A DNA stretch of 64,000 nt from Acutalibacteraceae bacterium (GTDB taxonomy: Bacteria; Bacillota; Clostridia; Oscillospirales; Acutalibacteraceae). Shown piece after piece: positions 1 to 3,538 of this stretch. The stretch spans positions 5,940 through 69,939 of the forward strand of contig JAZPYN010000009.1 of NCBI GenBank assembly GCA_045544155.1, read 5' to 3'. A model generated the notes under the pieces. The model had not been told where the DNA came from and searched no databases. It worked only from the letters and a program-made list of their open reading frames with translations. Both the position numbers and the translations under genes were made by a program. Numbering within the stretch: position 1 is the first letter of the stretch; each line of letters opens with the position of its first letter.

Positions 1-1525
1 CCGCACACAGCTTCTGCTGCTCACCGCCCGAAAGACCTATACCTTTTTCGTCAAACTCACGTGTGAAAACCGTCTGCTCTTTTTCGGGCATCGACATAAC
101 ACGCTTGTATACGCCTGCCGCCTTAAGTGAATCGGTTACAAGTTCATTGTCTTTTTCGGTATTTTCCTCACGGCAAAGCACATTTTCGCTGACCGTAAGC
201 GCAAAAACCTTATAGTCCTGAAATACGGTTGCAAGCCTTTCACGAATAGAGTCAATGCTATATTCTCTTATATCCGCGCCGTTGTAGAGTATGGTGCCGC
301 TGTCGGGATCATAAAATCTTAATAACAGCTTTACGAATGTAGTTTTGCCTGCACCGTTGTGACCTACAACCGCTATGGTTTCGCCTTTGTTGATTCTGAG
401 GTTCAGCCCTGTGAGCGAGGGCTTTTTTGCACCGGGGTAGGTGAAGCATACATCACGGAATTCAATGCTTTCAAATTTCTCCGCTGCTTTGTCACCGCCG
501 GTCACCTTGGATTCGTATTCCATAAAATCCTTAAGGTTGCCGAAGTAAGCGGCCTCCTTACGTATAAAAGAAACAGCACGTCCGAGGTCGTTGAGTACGT
601 CCTTAAGGTTGCTCATAGCTGTCATAATAACGGAAAAATCCGAAATTGCAAGATTCTTTTTTACAACAAAGCGGTAGGTTGCATAGGTGTATGTAACCGC
701 TACGGGTAAAGCCTTGCCGAAGATGCCTGCAACAAGCTCAAGAAGCATCATTTTGATGCCGTATTTCCTTATTATTTCTCTGTTTTTTTCTACCGCGGTT
801 TCAAATCGGTTGTACATTACGCCGAATATGCCAGAGGTCCTGATATCTTTTGCAAAATCCTTGAGGAAAACGGTGCGCTTGACATATTCCTTTGAGCGCT
901 TGTGCGTGGTCATTTCTTGGTCTTTTTTTACTTCAAGCTTGCCCTTTACCGTTTCCGCAATAACGACTGCAAGCACAATGAGCATTATCAGCAGTATCTT
1001 AGGATCGATAGATACGACATAGATAACGAGAAATATGCCCGTGAGACCGCCTGCAAAAACGCTTGCAAGGTGGTAGGCAAATTCGCTCGAATGGTCGTTT
1101 GTGATTATTTCCGTTGCACGCTTGTACTTGTCATAAAATTCGGGGTTTTCAAAGCAAGCCATATCGACACTGACCGCCTTTTGAAATATACGGTCGTTGA
1201 GATTTTTGTAAAAATGCTTCATCCTCGTGCACACAAGGTAATCCGTGAAACAGTCTGTTGCCTTTGCAAGCAGACCTGATACCGCAAACATAATAACGAG
1301 CATTACATATTCTTTATAGCTGCCGCCGCTTTCAATCAGCGATAACAGCAGCTTAAGAAACAGTATCTCCTGTATAAAGCCCGTGAAAAACCAGTATGCG
1401 GTCTGCGTGAGGATAAAGGAGGTGAGCAGTAACGGTGCACACCTGTGAATCGTCTTTATAGCATAAAAAGTGTTTTTGAGGTTTACAAAACGCTCCTTAT
1501 GCTCTTTAGGTGTTCTTTTTTTCAA
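1..1525 (-). CDS. ABC transporter, fused permease/ATP-binding protein (C-terminal end runs off the window)
   Basis: Hand translation of the minus strand. TTG start at 1525 lies behind AGGAGG (rc of 1532-1537). N-terminal half is hydrophobic. Walker A GHNGAGKTT is rc of 338-364 and signature LSGGEQQK is rc of 11-34. The frame stays open to position 1, which is why it is absent from the ORF track. Confidence 0.85.
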   Translation of the reverse strand, partial: MKKRTPKEHKERFVNLKNTFYAIKTIHRCAPLLLTSFILTQTAYWFFTGFIQEILFLKLLLSLIESGGSYKEYVMLVIMFAVSGLLAKATDCFTDYLVCTRMKHFYKNLNDRIFQKAVSVDMACFENPEFYDKYKRATEIITNDHSSEFAYHLASVFAGGLTGIFLVIYVVSIDPKILLIMLIVLAVVIAETVKGKLEVKKDQEMTTHKRSKEYVKRTVFLKDFAKDIRTSGIFGVMYNRFETAVEKNREIIRKYGIKMMLLELVAGIFGKALPVAVTYTYATYRFVVKKNLAISDFSVIMTAMSNLKDVLNDLGRAVSFIRKEAAYFGNLKDFMEYESKVTGGDKAAEKFESIEFRDVCFTYPGAKKPSLTGLNLRINKGETIAVVGHNGAGKTTFVKLLLRFYDPDSGTILYNGADIREYSIDSIRERLATVFQDYKVFALTVSENVLCREENTEKDNELVTDSLKAAGVYKRVMSMPEKEQTVFTREFDEKGIGLSGGEQQKLCA

Positions 1526-1581
1526 ATTCAGCCTCCTGAAAGTGGGTGAGTTTCCGCTTTTAAGCTGTCAGCCGTGACAAC

Positions 1582-1617
1582 AAAAAACACCCGAAAAACT
1601 AAAACGCTTTTCGGGTG
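1582..1617 (-). terminator. Intrinsic terminator / attenuator hairpin in the leader of the ABC exporter
   Basis: Minus-strand RNA reads CACCCGAAAA-GCGUUUUAGU-UUUUCGGGUG followed by UUUUUU. The stem is a perfect 10 bp. It lies between the 20-codon leader ORF and the ABC start codon. Confidence 0.75.
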
Positions 1618-1639
1618 ACGGTTAGTTTGCAAAAGTGCC

Positions 1640-1702
1640 TCAGCGGACAGAAGCGGACACAATTACCCGAAATTTGTTTTTGTCAAAAGTATTCATCATC
1701 AT
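1640..1702 (-). CDS. 20-aa leader peptide (MMMNTFDKNKFRVIVSASVR) upstream of the ABC exporter
   Basis: ATG at 1702 sits 8 nt behind GAAAGGAGA (rc of 1711-1719); stop TGA is rc of 1640-1642. Codons 11-13 (UUU CGG GUA) contain UUUCGGGU, which is complementary to the 5' arm of the downstream terminator. Confidence 0.6.
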   Translation of the reverse strand: MMMNTFDKNKFRVIVSASVR

Positions 1703-1758
1703 TATGTCCGTCTCCTTTCTTTGAAATATTCTTTGCATTTACACGGAATGCAAAAATA

Positions 1759-1787
1759 AAGTATCACATCTCAACTGCATTTGTCAA
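1759..1787 (-). promoter_or_regulatory. Sigma-A-type promoter for the leader peptide / ABC exporter
   Basis: Minus strand reads TTGACA (rc 1782-1787), a 17-nt spacer, then ATACTT (rc 1759-1764). A TG lies 1 nt upstream of the -10. Confidence 0.55.
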
Positions 1788-1811: not shown

Positions 1812-1883
1812 AAATGTCATTCTGAACGAAGTGAAGAATCTCAGGTTGACTGAGATCTTTCGCTTACGCTCAGGATGACATTT
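1812..1883. repeat. Imperfect palindromic element (AAATGTCATyCTGArCG... family); probably also the terminator of the metallophosphoesterase gene
   Basis: Arms AAATGTCATTCTGAACGAAGTGAAGAATCTCAG and CTGAGATCTTTCGCTTACGCTCAGGATGACATTT flank the GTTGA centre. The rc of the right arm shares the 16-mer AATGTCATCCTGAGCG with 29578-29593. On the minus strand the hairpin is followed by a T-run. Confidence 0.7.
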
Positions 1884-1915: not shown

Positions 1916-3538
1916 TTACGGCTGAACCGTAATCGGTTTGTCTTCACTCTCGTGCTCGACGAGTATGAAGTTGTTACGCTTTGCGTAAGCCCAGCGCATA
2001 TCAAACAGCTTTACTGCATCCATCGGTATAAACAGCTGGTTTTTCTTTTCGGCGTTTCGGTAAACCGCATTTTCAAGCTCAACTGTGCCGCGGTCGGTTT
2101 CAACTGTTTTACTGTCCTGTGTGAATCTTGCCCAGTGGTCATAGCCTTCGAGATAAACCTGATTCTCCGTCTTCTCAACACGACCGCCGAAGTATGAGAA
2201 AAGTACACTCAGACAGCCGTACCATACGCCGTCGATATTTTCGCAGGTTGTCTGATACTGGCAGAGTCCGAGGTCAGCACCCTTGTACATCATACGTGTA
2301 CGGTTGAAGTAGGGCGCAAGAGCACGGGGCTCGATAACGTCATTTTCCTTATCTATAACACAGCGGTCTGCAATTCTGCCATCCTCAAGTGACGCAGTGA
2401 TTGTAAGCTTCTTGCCGTCAACCTCTGCGATTGCAATCATAGAGGTTCTGTCCTCCATAGTGTAGAACGCACTGTGCCATACCTTGCTGAGTGATCGTGT
2501 ACCGGGCGGATTCTGGTTTGAATTACCGAGTACGTAGTTAATCATACCCTTTGACGGCTCTTCAAACAGCTCTTCATTCTTTCTCGGGAAGCTTCTGCCG
2601 AAGCTGTGCTCATGACCCGAGAAGAGCAGGTCGAGCATTTCCATGCTTTCTGTCATAACAGGGTAGCAGTCGTAATTCTGGCAGTCACTGCCCGTGTAGC
2701 ATACGGGGAAGTGGTAAGTACCGATTTTCCAGTCGGCTGTGCACTTTTCAAGGTCAGCTTTGAGCCAATCGTTTACATCTTCGGGGCCGTTGACGCCGAG
2801 CACCGTAAAGTGAGCATTGCCGTAGTCAAATGCATAGTTTTCCGTTTCCCAGCCCTTGGGGCCGTTGTAGGGATAGCTGCCCTTGAGCTGCTTGCAGAAA
2901 AATTCGGCAGGCTCGGAGTAGAATCGGCCGATACCGTTTCTGTAGTCTTTGAAGCCTCGAGTATCGTGGTTACCTTCGGTGAACATTACGGGTACATATT
3001 CTGCAATGCCTTCCCAGCCGAGGAATGCACCGTTCCACTGCTGCTCGTGCATACCGCAGTCGGTGTTGTCGCCTGCAGTGAGGATAAATGCAGTGTCGGG
3101 ATGTTCCTTGAGATAACGCTTGATAAGTGAGTTGAAATATGAATAATCGGGTGCATCAAACGGGTCGCCCTTCTGCTGGTCTGATACGCAAAGGAACTTG
3201 AACTTTGTCAGACCTTCGGGCTGAGTTGTAAAAAAGTATTCTTCACTGCGGTTTGTGTCGTTGCCGCAGGTGTAGTAGTATTTTGTGCCGGGTTTGAGAT
3301 CTTCAAGGTGTGCCCAGAACATATTGCTGATGTCGATATCGCTTTCAAAAACTTCGGTTGCAGCTTCGGTACGAATTAAGGTATCTGTGCCGTCTTCACG
3401 GTAGAGTACATAGCCGTTTGTGACATCGGTGCTTGTACGCCAGGTGACAGCCATTGTTGTTTTTGCATCGTCGAAAATGCTTATCATTATATGGTCGGGC
3501 TGAGGTGTTGAGCCTCTTACGGGCTTTGTTCTTTCCAT
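1916..3538 (-). CDS. Calcineurin-like metallophosphoesterase with a purple-acid-phosphatase-type N-terminal domain
   Basis: 540-aa ORF. Motifs GDNTD, GNHD and GHEHS occur in the order typical of the family. The N-terminal MAVTWRTS region resembles the PAP N-domain. Confidence 0.75.
   Translation of the reverse strand: MERTKPVRGSTPQPDHIMISIFDDAKTTMAVTWRTSTDVTNGYVLYREDGTDTLIRTEAATEVFESDIDISNMFWAHLEDLKPGTKYYYTCGNDTNRSEEYFFTTQPEGLTKFKFLCVSDQQKGDPFDAPDYSYFNSLIKRYLKEHPDTAFILTAGDNTDCGMHEQQWNGAFLGWEGIAEYVPVMFTEGNHDTRGFKDYRNGIGRFYSEPAEFFCKQLKGSYPYNGPKGWETENYAFDYGNAHFTVLGVNGPEDVNDWLKADLEKCTADWKIGTYHFPVCYTGSDCQNYDCYPVMTESMEMLDLLFSGHEHSFGRSFPRKNEELFEEPSKGMINYVLGNSNQNPPGTRSLSKVWHSAFYTMEDRTSMIAIAEVDGKKLTITASLEDGRIADRCVIDKENDVIEPRALAPYFNRTRMMYKGADLGLCQYQTTCENIDGVWYGCLSVLFSYFGGRVEKTENQVYLEGYDHWARFTQDSKTVETDRGTVELENAVYRNAEKKNQLFIPMDAVKLFDMRWAYAKRNNFILVEHESEDKPITVQP

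What the first reader, a model, noticed from the sequence alone, without database searches (positions are those of the whole stretch)
1582..1787. Leader-peptide transcription attenuator upstream of an ABC exporter
SEEN (minus strand): The order is a promoter (TTGACA-17-ATACTT), then GAAAGGAGA, then 8 nt, then a 20-codon ORF (MMMNTFDKNKFRVIVSASVR, three consecutive AUG). A perfect 10-bp terminator (CACCCGAAAA/UUUUCGGGUG + U6) follows 22 nt after the stop, and then the RBS and TTG start of the exporter. The octamer UUUCGGGU in codons 11-13 of the leader ORF is identical to the core of the terminator 3' arm. It can therefore pair with the 5' arm (ACCCGAAA) as an anti-terminator. The leader also contains a direct repeat, GTCCGCT-TCT-GTCCGCT. 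ESTABLISHED: Ribosome-mediated attenuation by short leader peptides controls antibiotic-responsive genes, including the B. subtilis bmrCD ABC exporter (leader BmrB) and the erm/cat/vml-type genes. INFERENCE: Ribosome stalling early in the leader, for example by a translation inhibitor, would free the anti-terminator and induce the exporter.
Basis: partly seen in the sequence, partly recalled or inferred. Interest (0 to 1): 0.6.

Follow-up and report, generated by a model that had tools for sequence, protein, structure and literature searches.

The report
Ribosome-sensing attenuator before ABC exporter
A 20-codon leader reading frame and three competing RNA hairpins upstream of a two-gene ABC exporter form a conserved on/off transcription switch that is probably read by the ribosome; this is an unannotated member of a known kind of control in uncultured gut Clostridia.

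Summary

It is not chance.
- The same leader precedes orthologous ABC exporter pairs in about 50 Acutalibacteraceae (Oscillospirales) genomes.
- A second copy in this genome precedes a GNAT acetyltransferase.
- The terminator shows compensatory changes.
- The anti-terminator segment tracks each terminator's 5' arm, also where the sequences are unrelated.

The leader's own SD, spacer and AU of the AUG (1715-1701) pair with leader codons 14-18 (1663-1649). This helix covaries strongly and explains the conserved "VSVS" peptide tail at the RNA level.

The layout is a trp/vmlR-type 1:2 / 2:3 / 3:4 switch in which region 1 is the leader's initiation site. The most likely logic: a ribosome held at the start or first ~5 codons, for example by an antibiotic, gives read-through. 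Normal translation or no translation gives termination.

The signal is untested, and a pseudoknot variant (untranslated = ON) is not excluded.

This is a new member of a known kind. The scan noted related leaders before on other DNA (e1-2203128, e1-2217971).

The parts
1760..1787 (-). Sigma-A type promoter: -35 TTGACA (1787-1782), 16-nt spacer, extended -10 TGnGATACT (1768-1760). The TSS is inferred at about 1753-1751.
   Evidence: 10/12 matches, TG present. TTGACA and the TGnTA..T -10 are conserved in related loci.
1732..1754 (-). 5'-terminal hairpin. The stem is 1754-1747 with 1739-1732 and the loop is CCGUGUA (1746-1740). It is probably an mRNA 5' stabiliser; the role of the loop is unexplained.
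   Evidence: -6.1 kcal/mol, z -3.45. The stem covaries among relatives (GCAUU/AAUGC, GCACCU/AGGUGC, GUACCU/AGGUAC). The loop CCGUGU is kept in classes 1 and 3 and lost in class 2.
1701..1715 (-). Region 1 (S1a): leader SD GGAG, spacer ACGGACAUA and the A and U of the start codon. This is the 5' strand of the anti-anti-terminator helix.
   Evidence: RNAalifold picks this helix. On 36 leaders 94.3% of cells pair, against 52.6% or less when slid. On 57 CM-aligned rows 10 of its 15 pairs show compensatory changes.
1640..1702 (-). Leader ORF: 20 codons plus TGA, MMMNTFDKNKFRVIVSASVR.
   Evidence: Frame 0 has no stop in 41 distinct homologous ORFs, while frame +1 averages 2.98 stops. Indels are multiples of 3. 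The stop always lies 1-3 codons after the anti-SD strand.
1665..1680 (-). Region 2a, the anti-terminator strand. The core UUUCGGGU (1672-1665) pairs with ACCCGAAA (1616-1609). AAAAC (1680-1676) pairs with GUUUU in the terminator loop.
   Evidence: -14.3 kcal/mol duplex; the folded 2:3 state is -18.3. The position is conserved directly 5' of region 2b.
1649..1663 (-). Region 2b (S1b): the anti-SD strand AUUGUGUCCGCUUCU, codons 14-18. It contains the first GTCCGCT repeat and pairs with region 1.
   Evidence: (S1 hairpin -19.8 kcal/mol, z -4.25). In L081 and L134 the same RNA motif lies in a different reading frame, so the conservation is at the RNA level.
1637..1654 (-). Weak alternative hairpin P2: GCUUC (1654-1650) pairs with GAGGC (1641-1637) across the stop codon. 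It spans the second GTCCGCT copy (1648-1642). It would hold the freed anti-SD strand inside the anti-terminator state.
   Evidence: It is weak in this window (z about 0). In relatives it is strong, because a mimic of region 1 follows the stop (AACAGGCAU, AACGGACAU, AACGGAUAA; z down to -3.5).
1582..1617 (-). Regions 3 and 4, the intrinsic terminator: 5' arm 1617-1606, loop 1605-1600, 3' arm 1599-1588, U6 at 1587-1582.
   Evidence: -19.1 kcal/mol, z -7.2. All 12 terminator pairs show compensatory changes on A3.
1..1537 (-). RBS AGGAGG (1537-1532) and TTG start (1525) of ABC half-transporter 1 (608 aa), which runs off the window. On the contig it is followed by ABC half-transporter 2 (598 aa), a 354-aa secreted protein of no known family, and a terminator.
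   Evidence: ABC-2 follows ABC-1 in 70 of 80 related loci.

Best explanation
This is a ribosome-dependent (leader-peptide) transcription attenuator that controls a heterodimeric ABC exporter operon.

A constitutive-looking promoter makes a leader RNA with four interacting regions:
- Region 1 is the leader's own Shine-Dalgarno sequence, spacer and the AU of its AUG.
- Region 2 is one contiguous strand inside the leader ORF. It consists of the anti-terminator segment (codons 9-13) directly followed by an anti-SD segment (codons 14-18).
- Region 3 is the terminator's 5' arm, preceded by a short post-stop segment.
- Region 4 is the terminator's 3' arm plus the U-tract.

Inferred logic:
- If no ribosome is on the leader, 1:2 forms as soon as codon 18 is transcribed. 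The terminator 3:4 then forms and transcription stops at about 1582.
- If a ribosome translates normally, it covers region 2 and stops at the UGA just behind it. 3:4 forms again and transcription stops.
- If a ribosome is held on the initiation site or the first ~5 codons, region 1 is occupied and region 2 is free. Region 2 pairs with region 3, the terminator cannot form, and RNA polymerase reads into the exporter genes.

The most plausible holding agent is a translation inhibitor that traps initiating or early-elongating ribosomes.

Shown: the existence, conservation and covariation of the ORF and of helices 1:2, 2:3 and 3:4.
Inferred: translation of the ORF, the direction of the switch and the nature of the signal.
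For: Anatomy: verified. The three states have balanced energies in this window: 1:2 is -19.8, 2:3 is -18.3 and 3:4 is -19.1 kcal/mol.

Conservation:
- The leader DNA matches in 17/31 genomes of the genus.
- About 40 of 80 orthologous ABC loci carry a 19-23-codon leader, in three sequence classes.
- The covariance model finds 53 leaders.

Helix 1:2:
- 94.3% of cells pair, against 52.6% or less when slid.
- Class 2 changes ACGGAC/GUCCGU to ACAGAC/GUCUGU.
- Distant 30-40-codon leaders keep the helix with unrelated spacers (GCGAACAAAA, GUGAACACAA, GUGAAUAUAACG).
- Overall 22 of 27 modelled pairs show compensatory change.

Helix 2:3:
- The best partner of the terminator's 5' arm lies at the same leader site in 39/42 leaders.
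- It ends within a few nt of the anti-SD strand in 40/52 leaders, against about 17% by chance.
- Unrelated pairs occupy that same place: AUCAGA:UCUGAU in L106, GGAUGU:ACAUCC in L128, CCGGGA:UCCCGG in L083.
- Native pairs are better than swapped ones (-9.8 vs -8.2 kcal/mol).
- The R, P or G codon at that site changes with the terminator, so the RNA is what is constrained, not the peptide.

Translation:
- The GGAG side of the helix is invariant while its partner varies.
- The ORF is open in 41 variants.
- Indels are multiples of 3.
- The stop is fixed just after region 2.

Direction of the switch:
- Masking a ribosome at codons 1-5 raises 5'-arm pairing in nearly all variants.
- The freed anti-SD strand then has a conserved alternative partner after the stop.

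Context: the same leader type precedes ABC exporters and three different GNAT acetyltransferases, which are typical inducible resistance genes.

Precedents: vmlR (uORF inside an anti-anti-terminator, PMC9226507) and bmrB-bmrCD (PMC4191407).
Against: - Translation, premature 3' ends and inducibility are therefore unshown.
- The anti-terminator core is short: 8 bp here and only 5-6 bp (UCCGG-type) in classes 2 and 3. The terminator state is about 12 kcal/mol more stable at equilibrium, so the switch must act kinetically.
- A column-wise covariation count for 2:3 was inconclusive because the register shifts between classes.
- The anti-terminator and anti-SD segments are adjacent but do not share nucleotides. 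Helix 1:2 therefore does not strictly exclude 2a:3, and an H-type pseudoknot is sterically possible.
- P2 is weak in this window.
- Some close ABC orthologs have no leader at all.
- The exporter's substrate is unknown.
Confidence: 0.6

Rival explanations
1. Same parts, opposite default: a sensor of ribosome loading. Because the anti-terminator segment abuts the anti-SD strand (gap 0-1 nt), helix 1:2 and helix 2a:3 can coexist as a coaxially stacked H-type pseudoknot. An untranslated leader would then read through. Only a ribosome that loads in the short window before codon 18 is transcribed, and that then translates through region 2, would restore termination. The exporter would be ON whenever initiation on the leader fails or lags, and also when a ribosome stalls early.
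For: - The gap between the anti-terminator site and the anti-SD strand is 0-1 nt in most of 52 leaders, which is canonical H-type geometry.
- The two segments share no nucleotides, so they are not strictly exclusive.
- The loops are long enough: about 28 nt and 32 nt in the window.
- Long 30-40-codon leaders make more sense if stalls anywhere before region 2 induce.
Against: - A conserved post-stop mimic of region 1 gives the anti-SD strand an alternative partner. This is needed only if region 1 is occupied in the induced state.
- Experimentally studied analogues are OFF when the leader is not translated (vmlR, bmrB).
- No pseudoknot-capable folding or probing was available.
Confidence: 0.18
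2. There is no conditional regulation. The terminator is a leaky, constitutive attenuator or insulator. The SD:anti-SD helix merely silences and stabilises abundant short leader transcripts. The complementarity between leader and terminator has no switching role.
For: - The anti-terminator core is short, and the terminator is much more stable at equilibrium.
- The column-wise count is inconclusive.
- There are no expression data.
Against: - The anti-terminator site keeps its position while its sequence follows unrelated terminators in independent copies.
- An ORF with a fixed stop position is maintained in 41 variants.
- A purely structural element needs neither of these.
Confidence: 0.08
3. 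The small ORF encodes a functional secreted peptide (a pheromone or RiPP-like product with a C-terminal Cys), and the ABC pair is its exporter.
For: - A small ORF with a strong SD lies next to an ABC exporter.
- The peptide has a conserved hydrophobic C-terminus, VS[AV]S[AV]C.
Against: - The conserved tail is explained by RNA pairing. In L081 and L134 the same RNA motif is read in another frame.
- The residue at the anti-terminator site is R, P or G, depending on the terminator.
- An intrinsic terminator separates the ORF from the exporter in all copies.
- Neither ABC protein has a peptidase domain.
- The same leader type precedes GNAT genes.
Confidence: 0.04
4. A ligand- or protein-binding leader (riboswitch or RNA-binding regulator) in which the ORF is incidental. 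The conserved 5' hairpin loop CCGUGU or the large loop of helix 1:2 would be the binding site.
For: - The hairpin loop is conserved in classes 1 and 3.
- The full leader has a strong overall fold, z -4.25.
Against: - No Rfam family matches.
- The large loop is the most variable part of the leader, both in sequence and in length.
- Class 2 lacks the loop motif.
- The SD, AUG, open frame and stop are all maintained.
Confidence: 0.05

Closest known systems
Bacillus subtilis vmlR leader (and the Listeria lmo0919 type): a uORF inside an anti-anti-terminator hairpin (PMC9226507)
   Same: [quoted passage not shown]
- The start region of a short upstream ORF is part of the anti-anti-terminator, so a ribosome arrested at initiation opens it and lets the anti-terminator form.
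- No dependence on a particular peptide sequence is expected.
   Different: - Here the ORF has 19-23 codons (up to 40 in relatives), not 3.
- The SD itself is in the helix, whereas in vmlR it is single-stranded.
- The 3' strand of the helix is the end of the same ORF.
- The anti-terminator strand abuts the anti-anti-terminator rather than overlapping it.
- The regulated genes are a membrane ABC exporter pair (or GNATs), not an ABC-F ribosome-protection factor.
- There is no sequence similarity, and inducers have not been tested.
Bacillus subtilis bmrB-bmrCD ribosome-mediated attenuator (PMC4191407)
   Same: - A translated leader ORF, an anti-terminator weaker than the terminator and a predicted anti-anti-terminator.
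- It controls a heterodimeric ABC exporter operon.
- It is induced by ribosome-targeting drugs, and a start-codon mutant is uninducible.
   Different: - BmrB has 53 aa and its terminator lies inside the ORF. Here the ORF has 20 codons and ends 22 nt before the terminator.
- Self-sequestration of the SD is not described for bmrB.
- Orthology of the ABC pair to BmrCD was not established here.
Enterobacterial trp/his-type leader-peptide attenuators
   Same: - The 1:2 / 2:3 / 3:4 logic.
- A ribosome at the stop codon covers region 2, which favours the terminator.
   Different: - Region 1 here is the initiation site, not a run of regulatory codons.
- There is no enrichment of any one amino acid in the leader, so it is not an amino-acid supply sensor.

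Membership tests
Ribosome-dependent leader-peptide transcription attenuators (general class) | Short ORF with SD and start codon in the 5' leader, conserved as an ORF | tested here: met
   The ORF is open in 41 variants and its indels are multiples of 3. The SD side of the helix is invariant.
Ribosome-dependent leader-peptide transcription attenuators (general class) | Intrinsic terminator between the leader ORF and the regulated gene | tested here: met
   All 12 terminator pairs show compensatory change.
Ribosome-dependent leader-peptide transcription attenuators (general class) | An alternative anti-terminator that uses the terminator's 5' arm and lies where a ribosome can cover it | tested here: met
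   Per-sequence duplex analysis supports it. The column-wise count was inconclusive.
Ribosome-dependent leader-peptide transcription attenuators (general class) | The leader is translated and read-through changes with ribosome position in vivo | not testable with these tools
Only in-silico ribosome masking was done.
vmlR/lmo0919-type uORF-in-anti-anti-terminator attenuators | The uORF initiation region forms part of an anti-anti-terminator helix | tested here: met
   The SD, spacer and AU of the AUG pair with codons 14-18.
vmlR/lmo0919-type uORF-in-anti-anti-terminator attenuators | The anti-anti-terminator and the anti-terminator overlap, i.e. share nucleotides | tested here: inconclusive
   The strands are contiguous (gap 0-1 nt) but not shared. 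Exclusivity would act through hairpin P2, and a pseudoknot is not excluded.
vmlR/lmo0919-type uORF-in-anti-anti-terminator attenuators | The regulated gene is an ARE ABC-F ribosome-protection ATPase | tested here: not met
   The downstream genes are membrane half-transporters with a transmembrane domain plus one NBD each, or GNATs in paralogous copies.
bmrB leader family | A roughly 53-aa leader with the terminator inside its coding region | tested here: not met
   The leader has 20 codons and the terminator starts 22 nt after the stop. The bmrB layout is taken from PMC4191407.
bmrB leader family | The downstream genes are orthologs of BmrC/BmrD | not tested
   A heterodimeric ABCB-like pair is present. 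The PDB sequence search lists were dominated by ABCB1 and MsbA and did not resolve BmrCD.
Any curated Rfam cis-regulatory family | A match at or above the family's gathering score | tested here: not met
   One search returned only sub-threshold chance matches in 1300-2100.
Exported peptide gene with a dedicated ABC exporter (bacteriocin/pheromone type) | Peptide-level conservation independent of RNA structure, and a peptidase (C39) domain on the exporter | tested here: not met
   The anti-SD motif lies in a shifted frame in L081 and L134. There is no peptidase domain.

The most novel reading that the evidence does not exclude
The leader is a 'one-shot' sensor of translation-initiation capacity. 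Its SD is open only until codon 18 is transcribed. If no ribosome loads in that window, the SD:anti-SD helix and the abutting anti-terminator helix lock into a coaxial pseudoknot that both blocks later ribosomes and prevents termination. Exporter and acetyltransferase genes would then switch on whenever free initiating ribosomes become scarce, whatever the drug class. This self-closing leader-ORF module would be a portable device reused in front of different resistance-type genes across Oscillospirales.
Probability: 0.18. Interest if true: 0.65.

Novelty: new member of a known kind. Interest (0 to 1): 0.42.

Why it matters
If the reading is right, uncultured ruminant and animal gut Clostridia (Acutalibacteraceae and neighbours) use one portable RNA module to switch on ABC exporters and GNAT acetyltransferases when translation is disturbed.

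- It flags these otherwise anonymous genes as candidate inducible antibiotic-response determinants in gut microbiomes.
- It gives annotators a covariance-model-ready RNA family that is not in Rfam.
- It offers a clean natural variant of the vmlR logic, in which the leader ORF sequesters its own ribosome-binding site. This variant is useful for studying how ribosome loading and RNA folding compete during transcription.

It does not change the known picture of attenuation.

Tried and rejected
- **Rfam scan of 1300-2100.** Only chance sub-threshold hits appeared. The best, mir-670, falls on the neighbouring palindromic repeat and not on the leader.
- **Column-wise covariation count for the anti-terminator on A2.** 62.8% of cells paired, against 60.8% and 66.8% when slid. 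The result is inconclusive because the pairing register differs between classes. I replaced it with per-sequence duplex mapping and a swap test (not corrected for phylogeny).
- **PDB sequence searches to place the ABC pair next to BmrCD.** The lists were saturated by ABCB1 and MsbA, so no conclusion follows.
- **NCBIfam.** All matches scored far below their cut-offs. Tet(46) scored 97 against a cut-off of 1250, so the pair is not a named resistance family.
- **Amino-acid sensing and macrolide-type arrest motifs in the peptide.** I considered these and rejected them. The N-terminal half is variable and merely A-rich. A stall at the KNK motif (codons 8-10) would cover the anti-terminator rather than free it.
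- **A stall at the stop codon that lets the anti-terminator form.** I rejected this on steric grounds, because the two strands would flank the ribosome footprint.
- **Order-level covariance-model search.** It found only 3 weak hits outside the family, one of them real (L134).
- **The 354-aa third gene.** It is present only in the 3 closest relatives, so it is not a core part of the operon.
Full report
**1.

I read the minus strand. It shows, in order:
- TTGACA at 1787-1782.
- A 16-nt spacer and an extended -10, TGnGATACT, at 1768-1760. The consensus scan scores this 10/12.
- A 5'-terminal hairpin at 1754-1732.
- GAAAGGAGA at 1719-1711, then 8 nt.
- A 20-codon ORF at 1702-1640 (MMMNTFDKNKFRVIVSASVR, TGA), then 22 nt.
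- A 12-bp terminator at 1617-1588 with U6 at 1587-1582 (-19.1 kcal/mol, z -7.2).
- AGGAGG at 1537-1532 and the TTG start at 1525 of an ABC protein.

UUUCGGGU (1672-1665) copies the core of the 3' arm and is complementary to ACCCGAAA (1616-1609). The direct repeat GTCCGCT lies at 1658-1652 and 1648-1642.

**2. Genomic context**

- The window is contig 9, positions 5940-69939, of a 2.65-Mb draft genome.
- On the contig the leader is followed by two ABC half-transporters of 608 and 598 aa. Each has a transmembrane domain and one NBD.
- After them come a 354-aa secreted protein with no family match and a terminator.
- Record titles of the closest relatives name Acutalibacteraceae (Oscillospirales) MAGs from sheep, goat, cattle, deer and other animal guts.
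- ABC-2 follows ABC-1 in 70 of 80 related loci. The 354-aa gene is present only in the three closest.
- Neither ABC protein reaches any curated NCBIfam cut-off.

**3. The leader is conserved, so it is not a chance arrangement**

- BLAST of 301 nt of leader DNA finds it in 17 of 31 genomes of the same genus, at 68-82% identity. The ORF is the best-conserved stretch.
- Upstream of 80 orthologous ABC genes I found leader ORFs of 19-23 codons in about 40 loci. They fall into three classes:
  - MM..[FI][RP]V[IA]VS[AV]S[AV][CR]-UGA, which is this window's class.
  - MTR..YP[VA]VVSVSA-UAA.
  - MMKMV..N[NY]PVIVSASC-UGA.
- Every one of them is followed by an intrinsic terminator 17-30 nt after its stop.
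- A covariance model built from 36 of them (R1) recovers 53 leaders in the loci held.
- R1 also finds a second copy in this same genome, on contig 28, in front of a GNAT acetyltransferase.
- It finds further copies in other genera in front of ABC exporters and of two more, different GNAT genes.
- Outside the family it is rare in the genomes sampled: 3 weak hits in 150.
- No Rfam family matches.

**4.

- RNAalifold on the same-genus alignment predicts two helices. One is the terminator. The other pairs the leader's own SD, spacer and the AU of the AUG (1715-1701) with codons 14-18 (1663-1649).
- In the window this hairpin folds at -19.8 kcal/mol, z -4.25.
- On 36 diverse leaders 94.3% of cells pair, against 52.6% or less when one strand is slid.
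- Class 2 has ACAGAC paired with GUCUGU where class 1 has ACGGAC paired with GUCCGU. G-U intermediates occur.
- More distant ABC orthologs have 30-40-codon leaders. They keep the same helix with entirely different spacers: GCGAACAAAA, GUGAACACAA, GUGAAUAUAACG, each with its exact complement at the 3' end of the ORF.
- On the model-fitted alignment of 57 rows, 22 of 27 pairs show compensatory change and 93.9% of cells pair, against 53.8% or less when slid. That alignment leans towards the model.
- The GGAG side is invariant while its partner varies between U and C. This is what one expects if GGAG must also serve as an SD.
- This helix explains the conserved 'VSVS' peptide tail at the RNA level. 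In L081 and L134 the same GUCCG..UC motif is read in another frame, as PVRFLC and VCPTP.

**5. The anti-terminator**

- For each leader I asked where in the whole upstream transcript the terminator's 5' arm pairs best.
  - With the terminator loop included, and over 52 distinct leaders including the distant ones, the site ends within -6 to +12 nt of the anti-SD strand in 40 cases. Chance would give about 17%. The gap is usually 0-1 nt.
- The sequences at that site differ with the terminator:
  - UUUCGGGU:ACCCGAAA here.
  - UUCCGGC:GCCGGAG in L057.
  - CCGGGA:UCCCGG in L083.
  - AUCAGA:UCUGAU in the GNAT copy of this genome.
  - GGAUGU:ACAUCC in L128.
- The codon at the site is accordingly Arg, Pro or Gly, so the RNA is constrained and not the peptide.
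- Native pairs beat swapped pairs (-9.8 vs -8.2 kcal/mol; permutation p < 5e-5, not corrected for phylogeny).
- A column-wise count was inconclusive because the register shifts between classes.
- In the window the anti-terminator is longer than the octamer. AAAAC (1680-1676) pairs with GUUUU in the terminator loop, which closes the loop-proximal toehold. The folded 2:3 state is -18.3 kcal/mol.

**6. Evidence that the ORF is translated (comparative only)**

- A consensus SD lies at 7-9 nt from an AUG in all copies.
- There are zero in-frame stops in 41 distinct ORFs, against a mean of 2.98 in frame +1 and 0.56 in frame +2.
- All indels in the variable N-terminal half are multiples of three.
- The stop codon always lies 1-3 codons after the anti-SD strand.

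**7. How it most likely works**

The parts form a 1:2 / 2:3 / 3:4 attenuator:
- Region 1 is the initiation site.
- Region 2 is the contiguous strand of anti-terminator plus anti-SD.
- Region 3 is the 5' arm.
- Region 4 is the 3' arm.

I folded transcripts truncated before region 4 with a 30-nt ribosome mask. The 5' arm pairs more when the P-site is at codons 1-5 than with no ribosome or with a ribosome at codons 6-18. This holds in nearly all of 22 diverse leaders.

With region 1 masked, the freed anti-SD strand pairs with a post-stop segment that mimics region 1. In relatives the mimic is AACAGGCAU, AACGGACAU or AACGGAUAA. In the window it is only GCUUC:GAGGC. This small hairpin sits under the anti-terminator helix.

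So:
- A ribosome held at or near the start gives read-through.
- An untranslated leader gives termination, because 1:2 forms first.
- A normally translated leader gives termination, because the ribosome covers region 2 and stops just behind it.

This is the logic shown experimentally for vmlR. There a 3-codon uORF lies in an anti-anti-terminator and lincomycin arrests the initiating ribosome (PMC9226507). It is close to bmrB-bmrCD (PMC4191407).

That the signal is an antibiotic is inference. It rests on these precedents and on the genes controlled, which are exporters and N-acetyltransferases.

**8. What remains open**

- The terminator state is about 12 kcal/mol more stable at equilibrium, so the decision must be kinetic, as in bmrB.
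- The anti-terminator and anti-SD segments abut but share no nucleotides. Helix 1:2 and helix 2a:3 could therefore coexist as an H-type pseudoknot. In that case an untranslated leader would read through, and the element would sense failure of ribosome loading. I give this rival 0.18. A G1700C start-codon mutant would separate the two models.
- The conserved CCGUGU loop of the 5' hairpin is unexplained. It is present in classes 1 and 3 and absent in class 2.

**9. Comparison with what is known, and novelty**

- The element works like the vmlR and bmrB leaders but is not a member of either family:
  - It has no sequence similarity to them.
  - The ORF length and terminator placement differ from bmrB.
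  - The regulated genes are not ABC-F genes.
- Its particular feature is that the leader ORF's 3' end sequesters the ORF's own SD and AUG, with the anti-terminator strand directly abutting.
- The scan had already noted leader-ORF attenuators before heterodimeric ABC exporters in gut and rumen Clostridia on other DNA (e1-2203128, e1-2217971). It had also noted one before an exporter/acetyltransferase operon (e1-733683). The 33-codon leader I saw in L088 may belong with these.
- I class the finding as a new member of a known kind: well supported structurally, untested functionally, of moderate interest.

Noticed in passing
window 1812-1883: A 72-nt imperfect palindrome lies just after the metallophosphoesterase gene (1916-3538, minus strand) and is followed by a T-run. 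It is probably that gene's terminator and a repeat-family member. It gives a spurious sub-threshold Rfam mir-670 hit. In L009 a sequence with the same end (TGTCATCCTGG) replaces the 5' part of the leader, including its SD. This suggests the repeat is mobile.
   Followed up: partly
L106:1501-1651 (own genome, contig 28, 32405-32555, minus strand): A second leader of the same architecture lies in this genome. Its ORF is MTMYYLYYSNSHIKSDVVLSAI. Its SD:anti-SD helix is GUGGACAAAAU:GUUUUGUCCGC. Its anti-terminator AUCAGA matches its own terminator arm UCUGAU. It lies in front of a 163-aa GNAT acetyltransferase.
   Followed up: yes
L046, L050, L056, L059 and other class-3 loci, between the leader terminator and the ABC start: These loci have about 100-150 extra nucleotides after the terminator. 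The extra stretch contains a conserved GAGUUCCUCUCAC-like motif that is complementary to a GAGAGGAGG-type RBS. It may be a second, translational layer of control.
   Followed up: no
window 1740-1746, and the same place in L025-L064: The loop of the 5'-terminal hairpin is conserved as CCGUGU(A/U) in leader classes 1 and 3. It is replaced by GAAAA or GUAA in class 2, whose spacer has ACAGAC instead of ACGGAC. The loop could pair with the ACGG of the spacer. Its role is unexplained.
   Followed up: partly
L002:2759-3823 (contig 9, upstream of the window start): The third gene of the operon encodes a 354-aa protein with a signal peptide and no Pfam match. It is present only in the three closest relatives.
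   Followed up: partly
L030, L032, L034, L035, L037: ABC-1 relatives at 72-76% identity lack any leader ORF or terminator upstream. They follow another gene directly or have a plain promoter. The attenuator has therefore been lost or never acquired in some lineages, or these genes are paralogs.
   Followed up: no
L086, L087, L088, L091, L097, L098, L101, L102: More distant ABC orthologs (about 50% identity, labelled Eubacterium sp. or Clostridia MAGs) carry 30-40-codon leaders. These keep the SD:anti-SD helix and the abutting anti-terminator with unrelated sequences. This points to a wider superfamily of self-sequestering leader ORFs.
   Followed up: partly
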